Both the position numbers and the translations under genes were made by a program. Below, piece after piece: positions 1-43,981 of a stretch of DNA of 43,981 bases. Each line of letters opens with the position of its first letter. Within the stretch, counting starts at the first letter, position 1. The stretch comes from a virus (Duplodnaviria; Heunggongvirae; Uroviricota; Caudoviricetes): IMG/VR virus record IMGVR_UViG_3300045988_012512, positions 1 to 43,981 of that record; one strand, given 5' to 3'. The notes under the pieces are model-generated. The model saw only the letters and a list, made by a program, of their open reading frames with translations, searched no databases and was not told the DNA's origin.

Positions 1-55
1 GAATAATGTTGTTGATGCGCGCACCATCTAGCGCTACCCGCGGCGGCTTGACTAC
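1..55. repeat. 55-bp terminal direct repeat, identical to 43927..43981 (genome junction / assembly overlap)
   Basis: Same 55-nt string at both ends of the window; minus-strand tailspike frame is continuous across the junction. Confidence 0.85.
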
Positions 56-9028: not shown

Positions 9029-9057
9029 TTGCACACCCCAATATAATAGGGTACTAT
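9029..9057 (+). promoter_or_regulatory. sigma70-type promoter (TTGCAC-17-TACTAT) for the plus-strand island
   Basis: Canonical spacing; same promoter architecture recurs at 18527, 29673 and 30772. Confidence 0.55.
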
Positions 9058-9087
9058 TCACTTACACCAACAATGAAGGGGTTTAAA

Positions 9088-9279
9088 ATGTCCAGTTTAC
9101 CAGTTTCCTTAATTCTGTTTGCACTGCTCGCTTATTTCGCGCCTTTCCTGGTTGCGTACTTCCGTAACCATAAAGCGAAGTTAGCGATATTCATGGCTAA
9201 TCTGTTTCTTGGTTGGGTTCTGCTGCCGTGGGTATTTATCTTAATCTGGGCGTGCAACTCGAATGTCAAAGAGAAGTGA
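9088..9279 (+). CDS. superinfection-immunity-like small membrane protein
   Basis: Two hydrophobic helices with AYFRNH...ANLFLGWVLLPWVFILIWA, resembling the Imm superinfection-immunity family; AAGGGG RBS before the ATG at 9088 (ORF track starts at 9073). Confidence 0.55.
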   Translation: MSSLPVSLILFALLAYFAPFLVAYFRNHKAKLAIFMANLFLGWVLLPWVFILIWACNSNVKEK

Positions 9280-9317
9280 GCTAGTATAGGACAAATCCTA
9301 AACACGAGGAAGTAAGC

Positions 9318-10448
9318 ATGGCCCAGAAGAAAATAACCGACGAACAGTTACAGGAAGAATTGAACGCCGGGATGAAGAATGTAGACATCGCCCGTAAATA
9401 CGGCATCTCAGACCGCGTTATTCGTATCCGTAAAGCGAAGCTGGCTAAGAAAGGCGTAGGTCACGGGCGAGACGTTAGTCACCTTGTGCCCGATGGCTAC
9501 AAGATTAAGGGTACATCGTCTCTGGTGGACGAGTTCGGCAACACTAAGTTGCAATGGGTTAAGACCGACACCGATGCCGAACGTCAGGTAGAGTTGATGA
9601 AAGCCGTAATCGAAGGAATGAAATCAGAGATTACGCCAGTCGCCCCTGTTAAAGCGGCACGCGCCAAACGTGACGATAAACTACTCAATCTTTACACTGT
9701 GTCTGATTTTCATCTCGGTATGCTGGCATGGGCCGATGAGAGCGGCGACGACTGGGATATGAAGATTGCAGAAGACCTGTTCTCTCGATGGTTCGACGCG
9801 GCGTTTCAGAAAGCACCGGACGCGGGAACAGGAGTTATTAACCTTCTGGGCGACCTCGCTCACTTCGATAGTCTGGATGCAGTTACACCTGCAAGCGGGC
9901 ATGTTCTTGATGCGGACACGCGCTATCAGAAACTTGTACGCTATATGATTCGGATGGTCCGCCGTGTCATTGATATGGCGCTGGTTAAGCATAAAAATGT
10001 TCGCTTGCTTATCGTGCAAGGGAACCACGACGAAAGCGGAATGATTTGGTTGGCTGAGATGTTCAGTACGCTGTATGACAACGAGCCGCGGGTGTTCGTC
10101 GATACGTCGCCGGATGTTTACAAGATGGTGCAACACGGCAAAACGACGCTGTTCTTTCATCACGGTCACAAAGCACGCTTCGACGCTATCGAACCAGTTA
10201 TGATTGCCAAGTTCCGCAAAGCGTTCGGCGAGAGTATTTACAGCTACGCCCACGTAGGCCATCTGCACCACCAGAAGATTGTAGAAAGCCGTAACATGAT
10301 TGTTGAGCAACACCGCACCTTAGCGGCTAAAGACGCCTACGCCTCTCGCGGCGGATGGATGTCGGGCCGCAGTGCAAATGTAATTACTTATAGCGCCGAA
10401 TATGGCGAGGTCGCACGTTTAACTATTTCACCGGAGATGCTGGGATGA
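9318..10448 (+). CDS. HTH domain fused to calcineurin-like (SbcD/Mre11-type) metallophosphoesterase
   Basis: N-terminal HTH (VDIARKYGISDRVIRIRKAKL); five phosphoesterase motifs SDFHLG, GDLAHFD, GNHDE, HHGH, GHLHH. Confidence 0.75.
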   Translation: MAQKKITDEQLQEELNAGMKNVDIARKYGISDRVIRIRKAKLAKKGVGHGRDVSHLVPDGYKIKGTSSLVDEFGNTKLQWVKTDTDAERQVELMKAVIEGMKSEITPVAPVKAARAKRDDKLLNLYTVSDFHLGMLAWADESGDDWDMKIAEDLFSRWFDAAFQKAPDAGTGVINLLGDLAHFDSLDAVTPASGHVLDADTRYQKLVRYMIRMVRRVIDMALVKHKNVRLLIVQGNHDESGMIWLAEMFSTLYDNEPRVFVDTSPDVYKMVQHGKTTLFFHHGHKARFDAIEPVMIAKFRKAFGESIYSYAHVGHLHHQKIVESRNMIVEQHRTLAAKDAYASRGGWMSGRSANVITYSAEYGEVARLTISPEMLG

Positions 10449-10933
10449 AAGATATTGTAATTTTCGATTTAGACGGGACATTGGCCGACGGTACCCATCG
10501 CTTACACCTGTTACCAAAAGATAACTACGGAGAAACGTGGGCGTGGAAGCCATTTAACATGGCCTGCAAAGATGACGCTCCGATATACGACAATATCCAT
10601 TTGTGTAGCGTACTGTGGCATTCCGGACTTACTATAATTATCCTTACCGGGCGAAGTGATGACGCTGAGGAGGAGACTCGCGAATGGTTACGAGAGAATA
10701 ACGTTAGGTTTGACACGCTAATCATGCGCAGCAAACACGACAACAGAAAAGACATCGTAATTAAAGAAGAGGTGTTGCGTGCTTTCGGACTGGAAAGAAT
10801 CTTGTGTGCGTTCGACGACTCTCCAGCGGTAATAAAGCATTTCCGTGACCTCGGCATAACCGCACACGCAGTTACCGAATACGACTGTAACGGGAACTCT
10901 ACACACTTAAAACCACACGGGAGCGATAAATAA
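10445..10933 (+). CDS. HAD-superfamily phosphatase (T4 polynucleotide kinase 3'-phosphatase-domain-like)
   Basis: FDLDGTLA, IIILTGRSDD, RKDIVIKEEVL and DDSPAV motifs; ATGA overlap with the upstream gene. Confidence 0.7.
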   Translation: MKDIVIFDLDGTLADGTHRLHLLPKDNYGETWAWKPFNMACKDDAPIYDNIHLCSVLWHSGLTIIILTGRSDDAEEETREWLRENNVRFDTLIMRSKHDNRKDIVIKEEVLRAFGLERILCAFDDSPAVIKHFRDLGITAHAVTEYDCNGNSTHLKPHGSDK

Positions 10934-11487
10934 TGGCTAAGGTAATTATTCTTAATGGCCCTGCGGGTTGCGGGAAAGACACGCTTGCTATGGCGCTGGT
11001 AGAAATGGGCTTTGCGAAAGGAACTACCAGTTTCAAGAATCCAATGTTCAATATTGCTTTGGCAGCGTTAGGCCAGGATGCTTACCACGAATTTCTCGAC
11101 GGCTACGACGACCGGGCGCGGAAAGAAAAACCCGAGGGTTTTCTTAATGGGTTGTCCCGCCGCCAGTTAATGATTGCCATTTCTGAGCAATTCATTAAAC
11201 CGGTATTCGGCGATGATTATTTCGGTAAGTATCTTGCTGAAAACTTGCCTGACGGCGACGAAGTTTTTGTAGTGTCCGACGGTGGATTCGCCAGTGAAGT
11301 TGCCCCTATCGTCGCCGCGGGGCATGACGTGCGAATCGTCCGCCTCCATCGTGACGGCTATACGTTCATCGGCGATAGCCGTGGCTATCTGTACGATGTT
11401 AGTGGTGTAAAAGATTACGACACCTACATCATACCGGGTGACGTTAAATCGAACGTTATAGACATTGCTTTAAAATTAGGTTTGTAA
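10933..11487 (+). CDS. deoxynucleoside monophosphate kinase (T4 gene 1-like P-loop kinase)
   Basis: Walker A GPAGCGKDT; further blocks resemble T4 dNMP kinase; TAATG overlap with the HAD gene. Confidence 0.65.
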   Translation: MAKVIILNGPAGCGKDTLAMALVEMGFAKGTTSFKNPMFNIALAALGQDAYHEFLDGYDDRARKEKPEGFLNGLSRRQLMIAISEQFIKPVFGDDYFGKYLAENLPDGDEVFVVSDGGFASEVAPIVAAGHDVRIVRLHRDGYTFIGDSRGYLYDVSGVKDYDTYIIPGDVKSNVIDIALKLGL

Positions 11488-18207: not shown

Positions 18208-18231
18208 GTTTCCCCTTTCTCGATAAGTAAA

Positions 18232-18258
18232 GCCCCGCCTTAAAGCGGGGCGCTAGTC
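18232..18258 (-). repeat. 27-nt conserved hairpin element (AGCGCCCCGCTTTAAGGCGGGGCTTTA), copy 1
   Basis: Near-identical to the plus-strand element at 31042..31068 (one mismatch, in the loop). Confidence 0.6.
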
Positions 18259-18526
18259 CTTATCATTTAAACATAGAAACGGCGTAATCTCAGTAAACCA
18301 GTTACTTTTTACACAAGCAATAGAGTATGGCCCTTCCGAACGCGTCAGCGTAACTACACTCAGGACTTACGTCCCGCTCCGTTACCTGCCCGCGCCGCGG
18401 TCGCTTGTTCATACTTCACAAGCTCAGGTGGAGCTTATCATATTTTCAGTGAAAAGTCAACTATTCGAATAGTTTATTCCAACGTTTACAATTGAGTGGA
18501 ATAACTGGAATACGTAAATAAATAGT

Positions 18527-18555
18527 TTGCGCACACCAACATAATAGGGTACTAT
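18527..18555 (+). promoter_or_regulatory. sigma70-type promoter (TTGCGC-17-TACTAT) for the DnaN-like gene
   Basis: Spacer and -10 region nearly identical to the promoter at 9029. Confidence 0.55.
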
Positions 18556-18582
18556 TCAGTTAACTTAAACAGGAGATGAGAA

Positions 18583-19104
18583 ATGGTTACTACAGTAATT
18601 ACTTTCCCTGCGTATGTAGGGGCAAAAATCTGCAGGGCTAAAAATGATGTGCGCTACTATTTGAACGCTTTTTACATAGACCCTGAAGGATTGATAGTGT
18701 CTACGGACGGTCATAGATTGTTCTGCGACAATGTGAAGACCAATGTTGAGAAAGGGACTCTCATAGACATCAAAGGGAGAGAGCCTTCTAAATTTAACTA
18801 CGCAGAGGTAAACCACGACAACGGCAGTGTAACTTTCTATGACGATAATCGTGCGCTTATATGCACGCTTCCGGTAGATGTTGTAGAAGGAAACTTTCCT
18901 GACTGGAGACGCGTGGCGAACATCACACCGGGTGTTGTCGATAGTATAGGGTTCACTCTGCGCTATTTGGCAGACGCGTACAAGATTTCTAAGGCATACA
19001 AAAATGAAATTGCTCGTTTCGATTTCCAGGACCAAACCAGAGGATGTAAAATACTATTTTCAAACACGGCCTTTATGGTGTTAATGCCTGCGCGATTTAA
19101 ATAA
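18583..19104 (+). CDS. truncated DNA polymerase III beta sliding-clamp (DnaN) homologue
   Basis: DVRYYLN, STDGHRL, FPDWRRV and C-terminal VLMPARFK match E. coli DnaN motifs DVRYYLNG, TDGHRL, FPDYRRV, VMPMRL; AGGAG RBS, own promoter and terminator. Confidence 0.7.
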   Translation: MVTTVITFPAYVGAKICRAKNDVRYYLNAFYIDPEGLIVSTDGHRLFCDNVKTNVEKGTLIDIKGREPSKFNYAEVNHDNGSVTFYDDNRALICTLPVDVVEGNFPDWRRVANITPGVVDSIGFTLRYLADAYKISKAYKNEIARFDFQDQTRGCKILFSNTAFMVLMPARFK

Positions 19105-19108
19105 AACT

Positions 19109-19131
19109 AAGGCCCCATAATGGGGCCTTTT
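19109..19131. terminator. bidirectional intrinsic terminator (AAGGCCCC-ATAAT-GGGGCCTT)
   Basis: GC stem with T-run; lies between convergent genes. Confidence 0.7.
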
Positions 19132-19132
19132 A

Positions 19133-19591
19133 TCATTCTGTCTTAGAGACCTTCGCCGCTTTGCTTACGGCCTCTGCACCATCGGCATCAGTAACTTTAA
19201 CGAAGTATTCACCAGCCGCATTAACAGTCAGAGACAGAGCCTCTTCCGGGGCGTTCACCACTTCCTTCCCGTCTTTGTACCAGGTCAGTACATACGGCGC
19301 TTTACCCGCCTTAACTTCGACGGTGATGGTGGCGCTACCGTCGACCAGCTCGGTGTCTTTCGGTTGCACAGAGAAATACACATCACCAGCATCTGCCAGA
19401 TACGGAATCTCATAAAGCATACCAGCAGCAGAGAGTGCGATACCGGTCTTGTCCGCATACGGCATCTCGTCTACAGGTGTACCTAGTACACTTTCATCTT
19501 CAACGTAGGTTACGTTCTCACCAGAACCGGATACACGGGCGTACTGGACTACGCGACGCGACGGCACATCAGTTACTTTAAAAAAGCCCAT
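19133..19591 (-). CDS. Ig-like domain protein
   Basis: C-terminal Ig-like signature PYVLTWYKDGKEV...GEYFVKVTDADG. Confidence 0.5.
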   Translation of the reverse strand: MGFFKVTDVPSRRVVQYARVSGSGENVTYVEDESVLGTPVDEMPYADKTGIALSAAGMLYEIPYLADAGDVYFSVQPKDTELVDGSATITVEVKAGKAPYVLTWYKDGKEVVNAPEEALSLTVNAAGEYFVKVTDADGAEAVSKAAKVSKTE

Positions 19592-19594
19592 AAA

Positions 19595-20218
19595 CTAAAC
19601 CTCTTTCATTGAGTTAATCTTACGTAAGACGCCTTCGAAAAGGCGTGGGTCTATGCTATCGCAAAGACCTTTGTATTCATATGCTAATTCAATTTTTCTA
19701 TGAAACCATGCTACGTGTGCCTCTTGAGCGGTTTCGTAAGCGCCTATTTGTTCAGATACGCCATCCACGGATACTTGAGCGATGAATCTTTTCTTTTGTT
19801 TATGGAAATGTACGCCGAGTGGGTGTTCGCCTCGAAGAGCGTCGTGGGCTGTTAGGAAAGTATTGAGGGATTTAGGGATGAAAACACAGTTAGAAGCATC
19901 GTAAACCTTATTTCCCGGGTTAAGTAAATCCTTATCTATCTGCCACCCAGGTACATAAAAATCATCAAACCAGACCTTGAAATTACTGAACACCAACCAA
20001 TCGTCCGACACGCGGCAACCTATATAAGTTCTGTTTCTTTGCTGCCATTTCTTGTCGTAGCACCTCTTTAACATGTTCTTCCATACGGCGTAGGACGCTA
20101 TATGCACCCCTCCGCAACTTATTGGTGAAACATCGTTAATACCCACACCAAAAACAATTCCCATATTAAACCCTATAAGAAAACCCCATGAAGATTGGTC
20201 GATGCCAGAGATAGGCAT
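19595..20218 (-). CDS. free-standing homing-endonuclease-like protein (HNH-type N-terminal region plus AP2-like DNA-binding domain)
   Basis: WKNMLKRC...YIGCRVSDDW...IDKDLLNPGNKVYDASNC then AP2-like GAYETAQEAHVAW; AT-rich with rare codons. Confidence 0.5.
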   Translation of the reverse strand: MPISGIDQSSWGFLIGFNMGIVFGVGINDVSPISCGGVHIASYAVWKNMLKRCYDKKWQQRNRTYIGCRVSDDWLVFSNFKVWFDDFYVPGWQIDKDLLNPGNKVYDASNCVFIPKSLNTFLTAHDALRGEHPLGVHFHKQKKRFIAQVSVDGVSEQIGAYETAQEAHVAWFHRKIELAYEYKGLCDSIDPRLFEGVLRKINSMKEV

Positions 20219-30737: not shown

Positions 30738-30771
30738 AACCACCACTCCTCTGTCTCGTTTCGATAAGTGA

Positions 30772-30800
30772 ATAGTATCCTATTATATTGGGGTGTGCAA
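30772..30800 (-). promoter_or_regulatory. sigma70-type early promoter (TTGCAC-17-TACTAT)
   Basis: -35, spacer and -10 nearly identical to the promoter at 9029..9057. Confidence 0.55.
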
Positions 30801-31724: not shown

Positions 31725-33992
31725 ATGTCCGATGTAATTTTATCCTACTCGTGGTCTCGTCGCAACGCGCGGGCAGAGAAAAAGGATATAAACGTCAGAA
31801 CCACACACACGGCAACACTGGACGACCTGAAAGAGTTAATCCAGCCGCTTGATGCTGTCCGTGACGGAATTAACCCGAAGACAGCGCCCGGTTATATCAC
31901 CGCCGCGTGCGACTCAACGCACAGCACCGTAAAAGACCCGGAAACCGGTGACTTTAAGCGAGCGCGTAAAGGCTTCTTCTATCGCTGTGACGCGTCTGTA
32001 AGCAAATCATCGCTGGCGTATCTGGACTTTGACAGCGCAACGCCGGAAGAGTATCAGGAAGCGGTGCGCCTGGTTAAGCGTAGCCGCCAGGCTATGTGTC
32101 TCTACACCACGGCATCCCATACCGATGAGTCACCGCGCTTTCGCGTCGTCATGCCGCTGGGCCGCCCGGTCGAAGGGGGCGACATCATCCGCATACGTCA
32201 TGGATTGCTGGAGCACTTCTTCAAAGGCATGGGCGCTGACCGTAGCGGGTTCACTTTGTCTCAGCCCATGTACCTTCCTCCGGTAGGCTCTCAGGTTATC
32301 TGGTCGCGCCGTAACGACCTTATTGACCCGGAAGAGTTACTGGAAGGCATCCCCGCCGTTGACGTTAGCAGCGCATCTGACTACCAGATACCGGAAGAAC
32401 TGCGCACTGCATTTACTGATGCGTTCGAGGCACTGGCGTTCGAATACGGCGGCATCATGACGCCGCGTGGCCTTAAGATGCCCGCCACACCGGAACACGC
32501 AGAAAACTACAGCGACCCGACCCCGCGCCCGGACGACTTCCTGCTGTGCTTCCCGCGCGAGGGATATGAAGCGCCGAACGTAACGATGATTCACGACACC
32601 GACATCACGGCAACCGAAGGCATGTCGCCGAAAGAGGTGTGGAAGTATGCGTGTGATGCGACCGGACTGCCGTTCAGTGAAGTCGCAGAGGCCATCGGAT
32701 GGGGCGCGCGTGAAGCCGTCTCATGCAGCCTGGATGACCTTGAAGACGACGAGGACTCAGAGGAGGACGAGTTACCGGAACCGGTAAAGGCTGATTTCGT
32801 CGTTGAGGGGTACATGCCGTCGGATTGTATCTGGGATATTGTTGGGGAGTCTGGCACGTATAAATCATTCTATACGCTGGGGATGATGTACCTGAGCGCC
32901 GCCGGATACCGGTTTGCCGGGGCAGATACCCAGCGTTGCCACCATTTCTATATCGACGGTGAGGGCGGTGCCACTACACGCACCCGTATTGATGCACTCG
33001 CGGCTAAATATGGCGAGGAAGGTAAAGATTATGTACATGTTATCGATATGGGTGAAGTCGGAAAACTGAAAAGCCTGATTAAGTTAATGCGCGAAACTGC
33101 GGGTGATGAACCCATCGGCATGGTCGCGTTCGACACCCTTAACCAGACGCTGGCCCTGACGATTGATAAGTTCGACGAGAACAGTTCATCAACGGCAATC
33201 GGCATGGGTAAAGTTATCGCCATCCTGAAAGAAGTACGCGACGCAACTAAAGCCGCGGCAGGCGTTGTACACCATACGCCGAAGGGTGGAAAGAAAGCCC
33301 GTGGCAGTGGAGCATTGTATGCTGGTGTCGACGTGGAACTGACAATCGAACGTGCTACCGACCGTCAGATAAACGTATACCACTCTAAATTTAAGCACGG
33401 GCCTCAACAGAAGACGGTTGGCATGGTACTGGAGTCGGTACAGTTTCGTGAAGCACCGCCGCCGAAAGAGTACCGCGCGGTTGAGTTCCTCGGTAGCACA
33501 GAGGAATACGGCACAATAGTAAACCTCGACCTGCCTGAGCCGCACAAGGCGCTTGTGCTGATGCCGTGGGGCTTCGAGCCGTTCAAGACTGATGAGGAGA
33601 AAGAGCGGGAAGAAGGGTTAACTAACGAAGGTAAACAAAATGTACGTAAAACCGTAGAGAACGCCGTCAACAGTTCCGAGTCCACTATACTCGCGGCGTT
33701 TGAACTGGCGGAGGGGACCTACAACGGCAACGAAGGTATCACGGTATCCGCGGCGAATAAGCTCGCACAGTCTGACCCCAACGCAAAGGCGTTTAACTCC
33801 AAAGAAGCCATAGAACGCGGGAAGATTAAGAAAATGGTTGAGGCTGGGTATCTTGTTCCGGGTACTGACGAAAACAATCAGATAATCCCAGGCCGTTACA
33901 GACTTAACACCCGGATAACGGATAACAAGATTCCGAAGACAATATACGAACCCAATGAGATGCTGACAGTGACAGAGGAGGATTTGGAATGA
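31725..33992 (+). CDS. replication protein: primase-like N-terminal domain plus RecA-like ATPase/helicase domain
   Basis: N-terminal LAYLDFD and SHTDESPRFRV (primase-polymerase-like); central GESGTYKS P-loop and MVAFDTL Walker-B-like segment. Confidence 0.55.
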   Translation: MSDVILSYSWSRRNARAEKKDINVRTTHTATLDDLKELIQPLDAVRDGINPKTAPGYITAACDSTHSTVKDPETGDFKRARKGFFYRCDASVSKSSLAYLDFDSATPEEYQEAVRLVKRSRQAMCLYTTASHTDESPRFRVVMPLGRPVEGGDIIRIRHGLLEHFFKGMGADRSGFTLSQPMYLPPVGSQVIWSRRNDLIDPEELLEGIPAVDVSSASDYQIPEELRTAFTDAFEALAFEYGGIMTPRGLKMPATPEHAENYSDPTPRPDDFLLCFPREGYEAPNVTMIHDTDITATEGMSPKEVWKYACDATGLPFSEVAEAIGWGAREAVSCSLDDLEDDEDSEEDELPEPVKADFVVEGYMPSDCIWDIVGESGTYKSFYTLGMMYLSAAGYRFAGADTQRCHHFYIDGEGGATTRTRIDALAAKYGEEGKDYVHVIDMGEVGKLKSLIKLMRETAGDEPIGMVAFDTLNQTLALTIDKFDENSSSTAIGMGKVIAILKEVRDATKAAAGVVHHTPKGGKKARGSGALYAGVDVELTIERATDRQINVYHSKFKHGPQQKTVGMVLESVQFREAPPPKEYRAVEFLGSTEEYGTIVNLDLPEPHKALVLMPWGFEPFKTDEEKEREEGLTNEGKQNVRKTVENAVNSSESTILAAFELAEGTYNGNEGITVSAANKLAQSDPNAKAFNSKEAIERGKIKKMVEAGYLVPGTDENNQIIPGRYRLNTRITDNKIPKTIYEPNEMLTVTEEDLE

Positions 33993-34191: not shown

Positions 34192-34210
34192 AAGGGGCAT
34201 TAAGCCCCTT
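34192..34210. terminator. bidirectional intrinsic terminator (AAGGGGC-ATTAA-GCCCCTT)
   Basis: Hairpin between convergent genes, T-runs on both sides. Confidence 0.6.
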
Positions 34211-34415
34211 CACCTAACGCCAGCCACTTGGCGTCTACTTCCAGCACTTCCGCCAGTTTAAACAGCGTTGCCGGGCGGACGTCCTGAGTTACACCGAGAG
34301 CCAGCTGGTTAATCGCACCCTGGGAAACGCCAGTCAGGACAGCCAGCCGGCGCTGGGAGATGCCGAGTTCTTTACGGCGTTGCTCTACACGGATTCCTAG
34401 TTCAGATGGTTGCAT
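34200..34415 (-). CDS. XRE-family (Cro/CI-type) HTH transcriptional regulator
   Basis: LGISQRRLAVLTGVSQGAINQL HTH; AAGGAG RBS; divergent from the promoter at 34480. Confidence 0.65.
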   Translation of the reverse strand: MQPSELGIRVEQRRKELGISQRRLAVLTGVSQGAINQLALGVTQDVRPATLFKLAEVLEVDAKWLALGEGA

Positions 34416-35559: not shown

Positions 35560-35690
35560 TTATGTATTCAATCGGTGAGGAAGAGTACGAACACAGTAGA
35601 TACCTTACATCCGCAGAGGCTGAGAATATAATACACGAACTTGACGCTGACAGTTTTGACTACGCATGGATTGAGGAGATTACGGAATGA
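35550..35690 (+). CDS. hypothetical small acidic protein (46 aa)
   Basis: ATG 35550 with GGAGAACAGGG upstream; ATGA-coupled to the exonuclease gene. Confidence 0.3.
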   Translation: MFVIMYSIGEEEYEHSRYLTSAEAENIIHELDADSFDYAWIEEITE

Positions 35691-36928
35691 TTCTTAAAGA
35701 ACGTGGTGGCAATAACGATGTGCACGCAATACTGTCGCCGTCTGGCGCTAAAAAGTGGTTAAGTTGCGCGGCATCACTGGCATGTGAAAAAGATATTCCT
35801 AACACGTCCGGTAAAGACGCCGTATTAGGCACGGCTATGCACACGATAGCGGAGATGCACCTTAACCAGTACATCAAAGGCACTGCGCTGCCGTTAGAGC
35901 GTGAAGTCGGCGCTTACGTGATGGATGAGGGTAAAGGTCAGATTAAGGCGCTAATCAGTCCGATGAAAGGCGCGGTGCTTATTACGGCGGACATGATTGA
36001 GCAGGTGCGCAAGTACACCGACTACTGCAAAGCGATTATCGATGTAGCTACTTACGCCAAACTCGAGATGCGCGTCAATCTTACTGAGGTATTGCACCCC
36101 GGTTACGAAGGCGTTGAGACATTCGGAACCGCTGACCTTGTTGCCGTCCAGGAACTGGCGAACATCGACGAGCACATGCTTATCATCGGCGACCTGAAAA
36201 CTGGACGGCATCGTGTCGAAGCGAAAGAAAACAAGCAGCTTATGCTATACGCTCTCGGTGTTTATCGCCGACTAAAGAGACGTTATAACATCACAGTTGT
36301 TCGTCTGGTCATCTTCCAGCCGTACGCGGGTGGCGCGTCGGAGTGGGACATCTCGGTCGAAGGTCTGGAACTGTTCGCCAAGTTCGCACAGAAACGCGCA
36401 CTGTTGGCTCTTGATGCATATTTCCGCGGTAAGAAGAACCTGAAAGCGTCTGACTTCAAGCCGTCGGTCGATGGTTGTCAGTGGTGTCGGTTCTCTGAAC
36501 AATGCGCCGCGCGTACAAAGACGGTCAATTCTGTACTGGCGGAAGAACTGGAAGACGACTTTGCACTGGAACTGACGCCAGAGCAACTCGTAGCTGAGTA
36601 TGAGAAGCTGCCGTTGTTGCGCCAGCACATCGACAAGGTTGAGAAAGCTATGGTCGCCGCGTTGCATTCTGGTAAGAAAGTGCCGGGGTACAAATTGGTT
36701 GAGGGTCGTCCAGGTAATCGTGCGTGGAAAGATGCCGATGCGGTATTCGAGAAGTACGGTACTATGCTGCAAAAGGTAGTTCTGATGACACCAACCGAAG
36801 CGGTTAAAGTAATACCAGAAGAAGAACTGAAAGACTTCATTACCCGTAAGCCAGGAGCGCCATGCGTCGCAACGGCGGATGACAAGCGTCCTGAGTGGAA
36901 TCAGGTAACAGAGGAGGATTTGGAATGA
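35687..36928 (+). CDS. Cas4/RecB-like PD-(D/E)xK exonuclease with Cys cluster
   Basis: N-terminal LSPSGAKKWLSC, IGDLKTGRH core, C-terminal CQWCRFSEQC. Confidence 0.65.
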   Translation: MILKERGGNNDVHAILSPSGAKKWLSCAASLACEKDIPNTSGKDAVLGTAMHTIAEMHLNQYIKGTALPLEREVGAYVMDEGKGQIKALISPMKGAVLITADMIEQVRKYTDYCKAIIDVATYAKLEMRVNLTEVLHPGYEGVETFGTADLVAVQELANIDEHMLIIGDLKTGRHRVEAKENKQLMLYALGVYRRLKRRYNITVVRLVIFQPYAGGASEWDISVEGLELFAKFAQKRALLALDAYFRGKKNLKASDFKPSVDGCQWCRFSEQCAARTKTVNSVLAEELEDDFALELTPEQLVAEYEKLPLLRQHIDKVEKAMVAALHSGKKVPGYKLVEGRPGNRAWKDADAVFEKYGTMLQKVVLMTPTEAVKVIPEEELKDFITRKPGAPCVATADDKRPEWNQVTEEDLE

Positions 36929-43926: not shown

Positions 43927-43981
43927 GAATAATGTTGTTGATGCGCGCACCATCTAGCGCTACCCGCGGCGGCTTGACTAC
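43927..43981. repeat. second copy of the 55-bp terminal direct repeat
   Basis: Identical to positions 1..55. Confidence 0.85.

What the first reader, a model, noticed from the sequence alone, without database searches (positions are those of the whole stretch)
18583..19104. Phage-encoded half-size homologue of the bacterial beta sliding clamp (DnaN)
The 173-aa product matches E. coli DnaN at DVRYYLN, TDGHRL, FPDWRRV (FPDYRRV in DnaN) and the extreme C-terminus VLMPARFK (VMPMRL in DnaN). It seems to cover domain II and the last half of domain III, lacking domain I and therefore the normal dimer interface. The gene is a solitary plus-strand unit inside the minus-strand structural block with its own promoter, AGGAG RBS and terminator, and uses rare codons (ATA, AGA, AGG). 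A clamp fragment that keeps the C-terminal tail could bind clamp partners or poison host beta-clamp rings, redirecting or shutting down host replication while the phage uses its own polymerase. I know of no characterised function for such a fragment.
Basis: partly seen in the sequence, partly recalled or inferred. Interest (0 to 1): 0.85.

Follow-up and report, generated by a model that had tools for sequence, protein, structure and literature searches.

The report
Phage mini beta-clamp, pocket-only fragment
This E. coli phage carries a small, mobile early gene for a cut-down copy of the bacterial DNA sliding clamp that cannot form a ring in the normal way but keeps the clamp's partner-binding pocket almost residue for residue; such genes are already annotated in related phages, but nobody has shown what they do.

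Summary

The gene is a self-contained cassette (promoter, AGGAG, ORF, terminator). It is AT-rich and under purifying selection (dN/dS about 0.1). It sits in two different slots in sister Kagunaviruses and is replaced by unrelated cargo in others that have a 93%-identical polymerase. Its promoter carries the same palindromic operator as the replication-gene promoters.

Relatives also occur in phages with no polymerase gene. The gene is therefore not a core processivity factor. Most likely it is a non-ring CBM-binding module that competes with or redirects host clamp partners.

The family is already annotated in GenBank and was noted in 2011, but its function is untested.

The parts
18526..19133 (+). 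Whole mobile cassette: promoter, RBS, mini-clamp ORF and terminator.
   Evidence: Identity to phage fBC-Eco01, where the cassette sits in a different slot (portal / head-morphogenesis junction), starts about 60 nt upstream of the ATG and ends at the terminator hairpin. In Bas73 the same leader and terminator flank an unrelated 67-aa ORF. GC is 0.37-0.46 against 0.52-0.57 in the flanks.
18527..18555 (+). Putative sigma-70-type promoter ('class B'): -35 TTGCGC (18527-18532), 17-nt spacer, -10 TACTAT (18550-18555).
   Evidence: A 36-nt element is repeated at 9029-9064 (+), and related copies lie at 30768-30793 (-) and 29672 (-). Each lies 20-35 nt upstream of an RBS and ATG. The pattern gave 3 matches against 0 expected. 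It falls below the threshold of the generic scan. Function is inferred, not shown.
18543..18556 (.). Palindromic operator AATAG-N4-CTATT overlapping the -10 element.
   Evidence: The window has 7 perfect sites and 11 sites with at most 1 mismatch, against 1.07 expected. The other sites overlap the TTGACA-17-TATAGT promoters of replication genes (34490, 37113, 40676). They also lie in the divergent control region next to an HTH_XRE Cro-like ORF at 34200-34415.
18571..18575 (+). Ribosome-binding site AGGAG, 7 nt before the ATG.
   Evidence: Read directly from the sequence. An RBS is annotated at the same place in Schulenburg and Shashou.
18583..19104 (+). Mini beta-clamp ORF, 173 aa. It equals DnaN domain II (without its second helix) plus the second beta-alpha-beta-beta-beta motif of domain III.
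   Evidence: dN/dS is 0.08-0.15 against four other Kagunavirus copies. It matches PHROG 3007 at 1e-35.
19109..19129 (.). Bidirectional intrinsic terminator shared with the convergent Hoc-like decoration gene (19133-19591, - strand).
   Evidence: The stem has 9 bp, 6 of them GC, with T-runs on both strands. It is annotated as a terminator in Schulenburg. It is conserved at both cassette locations.

Best explanation
The gene encodes a soluble beta-clamp fragment that cannot form a ring through the canonical interface. It preserves the hydrophobic pocket between domains II and III, where every known clamp partner inserts its clamp-binding motif (QLxLF-type).

It is made early in infection from its own promoter, which appears to be regulated by the Cro-like operator. 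I propose it binds CBM-bearing host proteins (candidates: clamp-loader delta, Pol III alpha/epsilon, Hda, Pol II/IV/V, MutS/MutL, ligase, Pol I) and so competes with the host's DNA-loaded beta ring. That would divert or disable part of host replication and repair traffic to the phage's advantage.

It is an accessory, horizontally mobile host-interaction gene, not part of the core replisome.

Shown here: homology, fold, the missing parts, pocket conservation, the cassette's mobility and dispensability, purifying selection, and the shared operator.

Inferred: actual peptide binding, the identity of the partner, early timing, and the effect on the host.

For: 2. Pocket. The review PMC11139829 lists subsite I and II residues. 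Their equivalents are R24=R152, L27=L155, T41=T172, G43=G174, H44=H175, R45=R176, P106=P242, R110=R246, Y128=Y323, M168=M362, P169=P363 and R171=R365. These are 91-100% conserved in 148 representatives from different 50%-identity clusters. 12 of 17 pocket positions fall in the top 20 columns, hypergeometric p=6e-10.

3. Ring parts are absent. Nothing corresponds to DnaN 1-137 or 253-311. A 200-aa relative has the same 1.5-domain plan.

4. Not core replication. Bas73 has a 93%-identical PolA and no mini-clamp anywhere. The gene's DNA is present in only 23 of 181 records that share the flanking region. The same cassette sits in a second slot in fBC-Eco01. No CBM is found in the phage PolA, SSB, helicases or nuclease.

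5. Neighbours in other phages are early or host-interaction genes: an anti-restriction protein and a ParB-HTH protein, Nmad5 (Tmn-escape locus, PMC11846954), and DUF932, DUF6378 and a DnaA_C-like protein.

6. It is a functional gene: dN/dS is 0.08-0.15.

7. Its promoter carries the operator also found at replication-gene promoters and beside the Cro-like gene.
Against: No binding was tested, and complex or oligomer prediction was not possible with these tools.

The pocket residues are also the most conserved part of DnaN in general, so homology-based collection of relatives favours them to some degree.

Relatives occur in phages that must use host Pol III and its clamp loader (64795_sal3). An indiscriminate CBM sponge would hurt those phages, so the target must be selective or the action transient.

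The family is more basic than DnaN (median pI 6.8 against 5.25; the query is 8.3). It also keeps lysines on the two 'channel' helices: position 134 is K/R in 89% of relatives. This fits a DNA-bound tether as well as it fits a soluble decoy.

No expression data exist.
Confidence: 0.4

Rival explanations
1. A loader-independent, non-ring tether. The concave helix face binds DNA directly, as in herpesvirus UL42/UL44. The pocket holds a CBM-bearing polymerase (host Pol III core or Pol I) or a repair enzyme on phage DNA. This would boost phage replication or recombination rather than block the host.
For: No clamp-loader gene is present in the phage. The query pI is 8.3 and the family median is 6.8, against 5.25 for DnaN. 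Conserved K/R residues lie on both retained 'channel' helices: position 134 at 89%, position 12 at 69%, position 137 at 59%. Kazlauskas and Venclovas found that viral clamp homologues without loaders are more positively charged and proposed direct DNA binding (PMC3201878). The gene's presence in polymerase-less phages fits recruitment of host polymerase. The promoter shares its operator with replication genes.
Confidence: 0.25
2. An anti-defence decoy. The fragment mimics the host clamp's pocket to trap or mislead a host immune effector or mobile-element protein that uses a CBM or senses the clamp. The targeting of replicating DNA by Tn7 TnsE through the beta clamp (recalled from memory) is the kind of interaction it could block.
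For: The cassette sits in a swap slot with alternative cargo. It moves between slots and is patchily distributed. This is the pattern typical of counter-defence genes. Neighbours include an anti-restriction protein (PHROG 14587), a ParB-like protein, and Nmad5, the locus where Dhillonvirus escapes Tmn defence. The same promoter class drives an Imm-like superinfection-immunity gene at 9073-9279.
Against: I found no defence system known to depend on a CBM or the beta pocket. There is no PADLOC match. The Tmn paper does not implicate the neighbouring clamp gene.
Confidence: 0.15
3. A genuine sliding clamp or a ring poison. Either several copies, or a copy together with host beta, assemble into a closed or defective ring.
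For: GenBank and the fBC-Eco01 paper call it a sliding clamp or processivity factor. From memory, E. coli beta* (domains II-III only) was reported to oligomerise and to support processive synthesis.
Against: Domain I and the first half of domain III (I272/L273) form the only known ring-closing interface, and both are absent. Three or fewer beta-alpha-beta-beta-beta motifs do not tile the 12-motif ring head to tail. Only two channel helices remain. There is no loader. The gene is not needed by sister phages with the same polymerase. The protein falls below the curated DnaN thresholds.
Confidence: 0.07
4. A RusA-like Holliday junction resolvase, as labelled by PHROG 3007 and copied into many GenBank records, or a decaying non-functional remnant.
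For: The PHROG 3007 label and GenBank product names.
Against: There is no RusA Pfam hit; the only hit is PF02767. All top structural matches are clamps. dN/dS of 0.08-0.15 and a large conserved family argue against decay.
Confidence: 0.02

Closest known systems
E. coli beta sliding clamp (DnaN, Pol III beta; e.g. PDB 1MMI, 4K3K)
   Same: Homologous (profile E 1.1e-27). Same fold and same relative placement of domain II and the C-terminal sheet. The clamp-binding-motif pocket residues are identical. The 148-HQDVR-152 loop is retained as KNDVR.
   Different: 173 aa against 366 aa. It lacks domain I, the first half of domain III and, in this subtype, the second helix of domain II. It therefore has no canonical dimer interface and cannot make a 12-helix ring. 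It is more basic. It is phage-encoded and accessory.
Short phage polIII-beta homologues noted by Kazlauskas and Venclovas 2011 (PMC3201878); PHROG 3007
   Same: Same class of object: phage-encoded beta homologues much shorter than DnaN, without a clamp loader, function unknown. The query matches PHROG 3007 at 1e-35. The 150 best-scoring of the profile's hits among 50%-identity representatives are all short, 141-254 aa.
   Different: That paper describes them as covering the second and third domains. Here both AF2 models show only half of domain III. I could not check which phages they listed, because the supplement is not held. The PHROG label 'RusA-like resolvase' is wrong.
E. coli beta* (internal dnaN product lacking domain I; Skaliter, Paz-Elizur and Livneh, 1996; recalled from memory, not found in the library)
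   Same: A natural clamp lacking domain I that keeps the C-terminal pocket.
   Different: Beta* keeps all of domains II and III and was reported to oligomerise and act as a clamp. The phage protein lacks half of domain III and is a separate, diverged gene.
Phage proteins that act on the host clamp or clamp loader: Staphylococcus phage Gp168 (PDB 7EVP; PMC11139829) and Mu MuC (PMC12867686), found here; N4 gp8, reported to bind clamp-loader delta, recalled from memory only
   Same: Phage factors that interfere with or exploit the clamp system, showing this is a recurrent phage target.
   Different: Gp168 and MuC bind the host clamp, and N4 gp8 as I recall binds the loader. Here the phage protein is itself a clamp fragment that would bind the clamp's partners, which is the inverse strategy. 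No experimental data exist for it.
Herpesvirus non-ring processivity factors (UL42, UL44, PF-8, BMRF1)
   Different: They have two full clamp domains and a strongly basic DNA face, and they bind their own polymerase's tail. The mini-clamp is smaller and only mildly basic, and the phage PolA has no CBM.

Membership tests
Bacterial beta sliding clamp (DnaN; TIGR00663; PF00712+PF02767+PF02768) | Detectable sequence homology to DnaN. | tested here: met
   phmmer against PDB gives 8.5e-5. The family profile against E. coli beta gives 1.1e-27, about 100 bits.
Bacterial beta sliding clamp (DnaN; TIGR00663; PF00712+PF02767+PF02768) | DNA-clamp fold. | tested here: met
Bacterial beta sliding clamp (DnaN; TIGR00663; PF00712+PF02767+PF02768) | Three clamp domains (about 366 aa). 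| tested here: not met
   The protein has 173 aa. Only the equivalents of DnaN 138-252 and 312-366 are present.
Bacterial beta sliding clamp (DnaN; TIGR00663; PF00712+PF02767+PF02768) | Head-to-tail dimer interface (domain I against the first half of domain III, I272/L273) that closes the ring. | tested here: not met
   Both segments are absent from the alignment and the model. The role of I272/L273 is taken from PMC11139829.
Bacterial beta sliding clamp (DnaN; TIGR00663; PF00712+PF02767+PF02768) | Scores above the curated model cut-offs. | tested here: not met
   PF02767 scores 17.5 bits against a cut-off of 27. TIGR00663 scores 18.5 bits against a cut-off of 137.65.
Bacterial beta sliding clamp (DnaN; TIGR00663; PF00712+PF02767+PF02768) | Conserved clamp-binding-motif pocket (subsites I and II). 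| tested here: met
   12 of 17 pocket positions are at least 91% conserved, all with the E. coli residue. Actual binding was not tested.
Bacterial beta sliding clamp (DnaN; TIGR00663; PF00712+PF02767+PF02768) | Loaded on DNA by a clamp loader and confers processivity. | not testable with these tools
   No loader gene is annotated in the phage or was found among the proteins scanned. A biochemical assay is needed.
Short phage polIII-beta homologues (PHROG 3007) | Full-length match to the family profile, length about 140-260 aa, phage-encoded. | tested here: met
   PHROG 3007 matches at 1e-35 over residues 13-172. The top 150 representatives are all short and match end to end. 224-284 phage records carry relatives.
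RusA-like Holliday junction resolvase (label of PHROG 3007) | RusA domain or fold. | tested here: not met
   The only Pfam hit is PF02767. The structural neighbours are all clamps.
Non-ring viral processivity factors (UL42/UL44 type) | Strongly basic DNA-binding face and binding of the cognate polymerase's tail. | tested here: inconclusive

The most novel reading that the evidence does not exclude
A large, previously uncharacterised family of phage 'pocket-only' mini-clamps acts as molecular decoys. By presenting the host clamp's partner-binding pocket off DNA, they would titrate selected clamp-binding proteins (for example clamp-loader delta, Hda, or mismatch-repair or translesion factors) or a clamp-dependent host defence. 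This would be a new phage strategy, mimicry of a hub protein's docking site, and the inverse of known clamp inhibitors.
Probability: 0.3. Interest if true: 0.75.

Novelty: new variant of a known kind. Interest (0 to 1): 0.5.

Why it matters
The beta clamp is the hub of bacterial replication and repair, and its pocket is an antibiotic target.

A natural, stable 19-kDa protein that retains only that pocket would be two things. First, it would be a new kind of phage tool for manipulating host DNA metabolism. Second, it would be a ready-made minimal scaffold for studying or screening pocket ligands without the ring.

The family is large. About 224-284 phage records carry relatives, and the 150 best-scoring 50%-identity cluster representatives are all short forms of this kind. 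It spans phages with and without their own polymerase, yet it has no tested function and is widely mislabelled as a 'RusA-like resolvase'.

The cassette-swap slot and the shared operator also give a handle on how Kagunaviruses exchange and regulate accessory early genes.

Tried and rejected
- The generic sigma-70 scan found no good promoter directly upstream. The promoter was identified only through cassette boundaries and repeats.
- My first operator pattern used the wrong spacing (N5) and found nothing. N4 was correct.
- I searched for CBM motifs in the phage replication proteins and at the termini of ORFs next to the gene in 10 loci. There was no consistent partner.
- Nmad5 and ParB-like neighbours seen in other phages are absent from this window.
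- Plasmid search returned only full-length plasmid dnaN genes, not mini-clamps.
- The cassette DNA has no match in 5,426 E. coli genomes.
- Rfam found nothing in the window or in the conserved upstream region.
- NCBIfam and PADLOC gave nothing above cut-off.
- Literature searches for a functional study of truncated phage clamps found none.
- The beta* papers and Iyer et al. 2013 are not held in the library, and the supplement of the 2011 paper is not held.
- The AFDB50 fold library was unavailable.

Full report
**What the window is**

The window is a Kagunavirus (Guernseyvirinae, K1G-like E. coli siphophage). It is about 97% identical over the tested 3 kb to vB_EcoS_fPoEco01, fFiEco02 and Schulenburg. 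The 55-nt identical ends suggest it may be a complete genome. The structural genes run on the - strand. The replication genes run on the + strand: an AAA_25 helicase-primase, a DUF2800 PD-(D/E)XK nuclease, an Enc34/gp2.5-type SSB, a family-A DNA polymerase and an SNF2 helicase.

ORF 18583-19104 (+) encodes 173 aa. AGGAG lies 7 nt upstream of the start. A strong bidirectional hairpin terminator lies at 19109-19129. The gene is a lone + strand gene between the spanins and the Hoc-like decoration gene.

The single sequence matches E. coli DnaN at E 8.5e-5 against all PDB sequences. Residues 16-116 align to DnaN 144-252 and residues 117-171 to DnaN 312-365. A profile of 46 relatives hits E. coli beta at about 100 bits, E 1.1e-27.

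The codon claim is also right: 6 ATA, 4 AGA and 1 AGG, and GC of 0.43 against 0.51 for the window. The neighbouring putative HNH endonuclease insert shows the same bias.

**Anatomy of the protein**

The secondary-structure order is beta-alpha-beta-beta-beta, then four strands without a helix, then the PDWRRV turn, then alpha-beta-beta-beta. Together with the alignments, this means three things:
- It has domain II, but has lost that domain's second helix.
- It has only the second beta-alpha-beta-beta-beta motif of domain III.
- It has nothing equivalent to DnaN 1-137 or 253-311.

A 200-aa distant relative (P0046) models as a complete domain II, the same single motif of domain III and an extra C-terminal helix. 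The 1.5-domain plan is therefore family-wide, and the Kagunavirus form is further reduced.

The ring of beta closes through domain I of one subunit and the first half of domain III of the other. The I272A/L273A variant is monomeric (PMC11139829). Both parts are missing here.

**What is conserved**

The invariant or near-invariant columns of the family are R24, Y25, Y26, T41, D42, G43, H44, R45, D102, G103, P106, D107, W108, R109, R110, Y128, M168, P169 and R171.

These map onto the residues the 2024 review lists for the clamp's protein-binding pocket:
- Subsite I: R152, L155, T172, G174, H175, R176, L177, P242, R246, V247, V360, M362.
- Subsite II: H175, N320, Y323, V344, M362, P363, M364, R365.

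I collected 148 representatives from an exhaustive profile search of 1.84 billion cluster representatives. The top 150 hits are all 141-254 aa and match end to end, and 97 have E below 1e-30. In these 148 sequences, 12 of the 17 mapped pocket positions are among the 20 most conserved columns (hypergeometric p=6e-10). Those 12 carry the E. coli residue in 91-100% of sequences.

The protein is therefore best described as the minimal structural unit that still holds the interdomain pocket. Two caveats apply. These are also DnaN's own most conserved motifs, and no binding was tested.

**The gene is a mobile, dispensable cassette**

- In phage Bas73, the roughly 380 nt upstream (including the leader, RBS and ATG) and the terminator are about 97% identical to the window. 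The ORF between them, however, is an unrelated 67-aa protein.
- Bas73 has a 93%-identical PolA and no mini-clamp anywhere by tblastn or HMM.
- In fBC-Eco01 the same cassette (97.5% identical) lies in another slot, between the portal and head-morphogenesis genes. Identity begins about 60 nt before the ATG and ends at the terminator.
- The gene's DNA is found in only 23 of the 181 phage records that share the flanking intergenic region.
- It is a GC trough, 0.37-0.46 against 0.52-0.57 in the flanks.
- It is maintained by selection. dN/dS is 0.08-0.15 against four other copies.

**Regulation**

The conserved leader contains TTGCGC-17-TACTAT. This overlaps a perfect palindrome, AATAGGGTACTATT (18543-18556).

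The palindrome AATAG-N4-CTATT occurs 7 times perfectly and 11 times with at most 1 mismatch, against 1.07 expected. The sites fall at three kinds of place:
- Strong TTGACA-17-TATAGT promoters in front of replication genes (34490, 37113, 40676).
- The divergent region next to a 71-aa HTH_XRE Cro-like ORF at 34200-34415.
- Three other 'class B' promoters like this one: 9045 (+), 29672 (-) and 30771 (-).

The site at 9045 drives a 68-aa membrane protein, annotated as an Imm-like superinfection-immunity protein in Schulenburg, and a phosphoesterase island. That island is also a + strand island inside the structural block.

I infer that the mini-clamp belongs to the early, Cro-like-controlled regulon. 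This is inference from sequence only.

**Distribution and neighbours**

Relatives occur in 224-284 phage records of Escherichia, Salmonella, Klebsiella, Vibrio, Proteus, Burkholderia, Pseudomonas and others. Many short viral proteins in BFVD have the same fold, with TM 0.8-0.87.
- In Dhillonvirus EP23 the gene is again an opposite-strand gene in the head block. It is followed by Nmad5 (PF18757, 2e-58), the locus where Dhillonviruses escape Tmn defence (PMC11846954).
- In Saltrevirus 64795_sal3 and Klebsiella phage ZCKp20p it ends a small operon with a ParB-HTH protein. In 64795_sal3 that operon also holds an anti-restriction protein.
- 64795_sal3 has a primase, helicase, SSB, Erf and ExoVIII but no annotated DNA polymerase in any of its 74 features. 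T1-like phages are stated to rely on host polymerase (PMC11447400).
- In metagenomic phages it sits in runs of small early genes next to DUF932, DUF6378, a DnaA_C-like protein and a DUF5906 protein.
- No canonical CBM occurs in this phage's PolA, SSB, helicases or nuclease. No terminal-CBM ORF recurs next to the gene in ten loci.

**Interpretation**

Four points argue against a core processivity factor for the phage polymerase and for an accessory protein that engages host CBM-bearing partners:
- the gene is dispensable in sister phages;
- it is mobile;
- it occurs with and without a phage polymerase;
- the phage polymerase has no CBM.

I commit to competition with the DNA-loaded host clamp (a soluble pocket decoy) as the most likely mechanism, at confidence 0.4. 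The main difficulty is that phages dependent on host Pol III also carry the gene, so the target must be selective or the action transient.

The closest rival is a non-ring tether that binds DNA directly and recruits a CBM-bearing enzyme to phage DNA (0.25). It is favoured by the raised pI (8.3; family median 6.8 against 5.25 for DnaN) and by conserved lysines on the two retained 'channel' helices. This echoes the 2011 proposal for loader-less viral clamp homologues. An anti-defence decoy (0.15) fits the genomic behaviour but has no known target. A ring-forming clamp or ring poison (0.07) and the 'RusA-like resolvase' label (0.02) are contradicted by the anatomy and fold.

**What is already known**

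GenBank relatives are annotated 'DNA polymerase III sliding clamp', 'beta clamp domain-containing protein' or 'DNA polymerase III beta subunit'. Shashou cites HHpred probability 100. The fBC-Eco01 paper simply calls Gp04c a beta clamp (PMC9825357). [quoted passage not shown]

No solved structure of a short form exists in the PDB copy. No curated family covers it. I found no functional study.

This work adds the following:
- the 1.5-domain anatomy;
- the demonstration that conservation is concentrated on the CBM pocket;
- the loss of both ring-interface elements;
- the cassette mobility and swap slot;
- the shared operator;
- the occurrence in polymerase-less phages.

**Verdict**

This is a real and correctly recognised homology, and an ordinary finding at the level of annotation. 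The protein remains a functionally uncharacterised and mechanistically intriguing variant of the sliding clamp. Interest is 0.5.

Noticed in passing
window 18208-18582: The 375-nt non-coding stretch upstream of the gene is 95-99% identical in about 160 of 181 phage records, including 65 Salmonella Jersey-like phages. It is much better conserved than the flanking coding genes. The - strand RNA folds with z=-2.9 and ends in a terminator-like hairpin (18232-18251) just before the i-spanin RBS. There is no Rfam match. It may be a late-operon leader or antitermination element, or another cis-acting site.
   Followed up: partly
window 9045, 18543, 29672, 30771, 34446, 34490, 37113, 40676 (14-nt sites): A palindromic operator AATAG-N4-CTATT (7 perfect sites; 11 with at most 1 mismatch against 1.07 expected) overlaps two promoter classes: TTGACA-17-TATAGT and TTGCRC-17-TACTAT. 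It lies beside a 71-aa HTH_XRE Cro-like ORF (34200-34415, - strand). This looks like the phage's early regulon.
   Followed up: partly
Bas73 locus L004 2582-2785; fBC-Eco01 locus L016 1057-1499; window 18526-19133: The slot between the Hoc-like gene and the spanins is a cargo-swap site. The same leader and terminator flank either the mini-clamp, a 67-aa acidic protein (Bas73), or two small ORFs (fBC-Eco01). All the alternative cargos are of unknown function.
   Followed up: partly
window 19595-20218 (-): A 207-aa ORF, annotated as a putative HNH endonuclease in the closest relatives, is inserted between the Hoc-like gene and the head-morphogenesis gene. It is absent in phages Ivi and Bas73. 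It has low GC (0.43) and the same ATA/AGA codon bias as the mini-clamp. It is probably a separate mobile insert.
   Followed up: no
window 33969-33992 and 36905-36928: The helicase-primase (31725-33992) and the DUF2800 nuclease (35687-36928) end in the same acidic tail, ...VTEEDLE. The last 24 nt are 96% identical between the two genes. This resembles the shared C-terminal tails with which, as I recall, T7 gp4 and gp2.5 dock on the T7 polymerase.
   Followed up: no
window 1-55 and 43927-43981: There are identical 55-nt direct repeats at the two ends of the window. This may be terminal redundancy or an assembly overlap of a circularly permuted complete genome.
   Followed up: no
PHROG 3007 / GenBank records such as PQ423993, NC_016566, NC_031918: The PHROG 3007 label 'RusA-like Holliday junction resolvase' has been copied into many phage records. 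It is contradicted by sequence and fold, because the family is a beta-clamp fragment.
   Followed up: yes
EP23 locus L006 5601-6365: In Dhillonvirus EP23 the mini-clamp is immediately followed by Nmad5 (PF18757, 2e-58). Point mutations in this gene let Dhillonviruses escape the Tmn defence, and it is toxic to clone (PMC11846954). Nmad5 is absent from this window. A functional link between the two genes is untested.
   Followed up: partly
window 9073-11487 (+): This is a second + strand island inside the - strand tail-gene block. It is driven by the same class-B promoter and encodes a 68-aa membrane protein (annotated as Imm-like superinfection immunity in Schulenburg) and a 376-aa phosphoesterase-like protein with a weak, below-cut-off Metallophos_2 match (annotated phosphoesterase in Schulenburg).
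   Followed up: no
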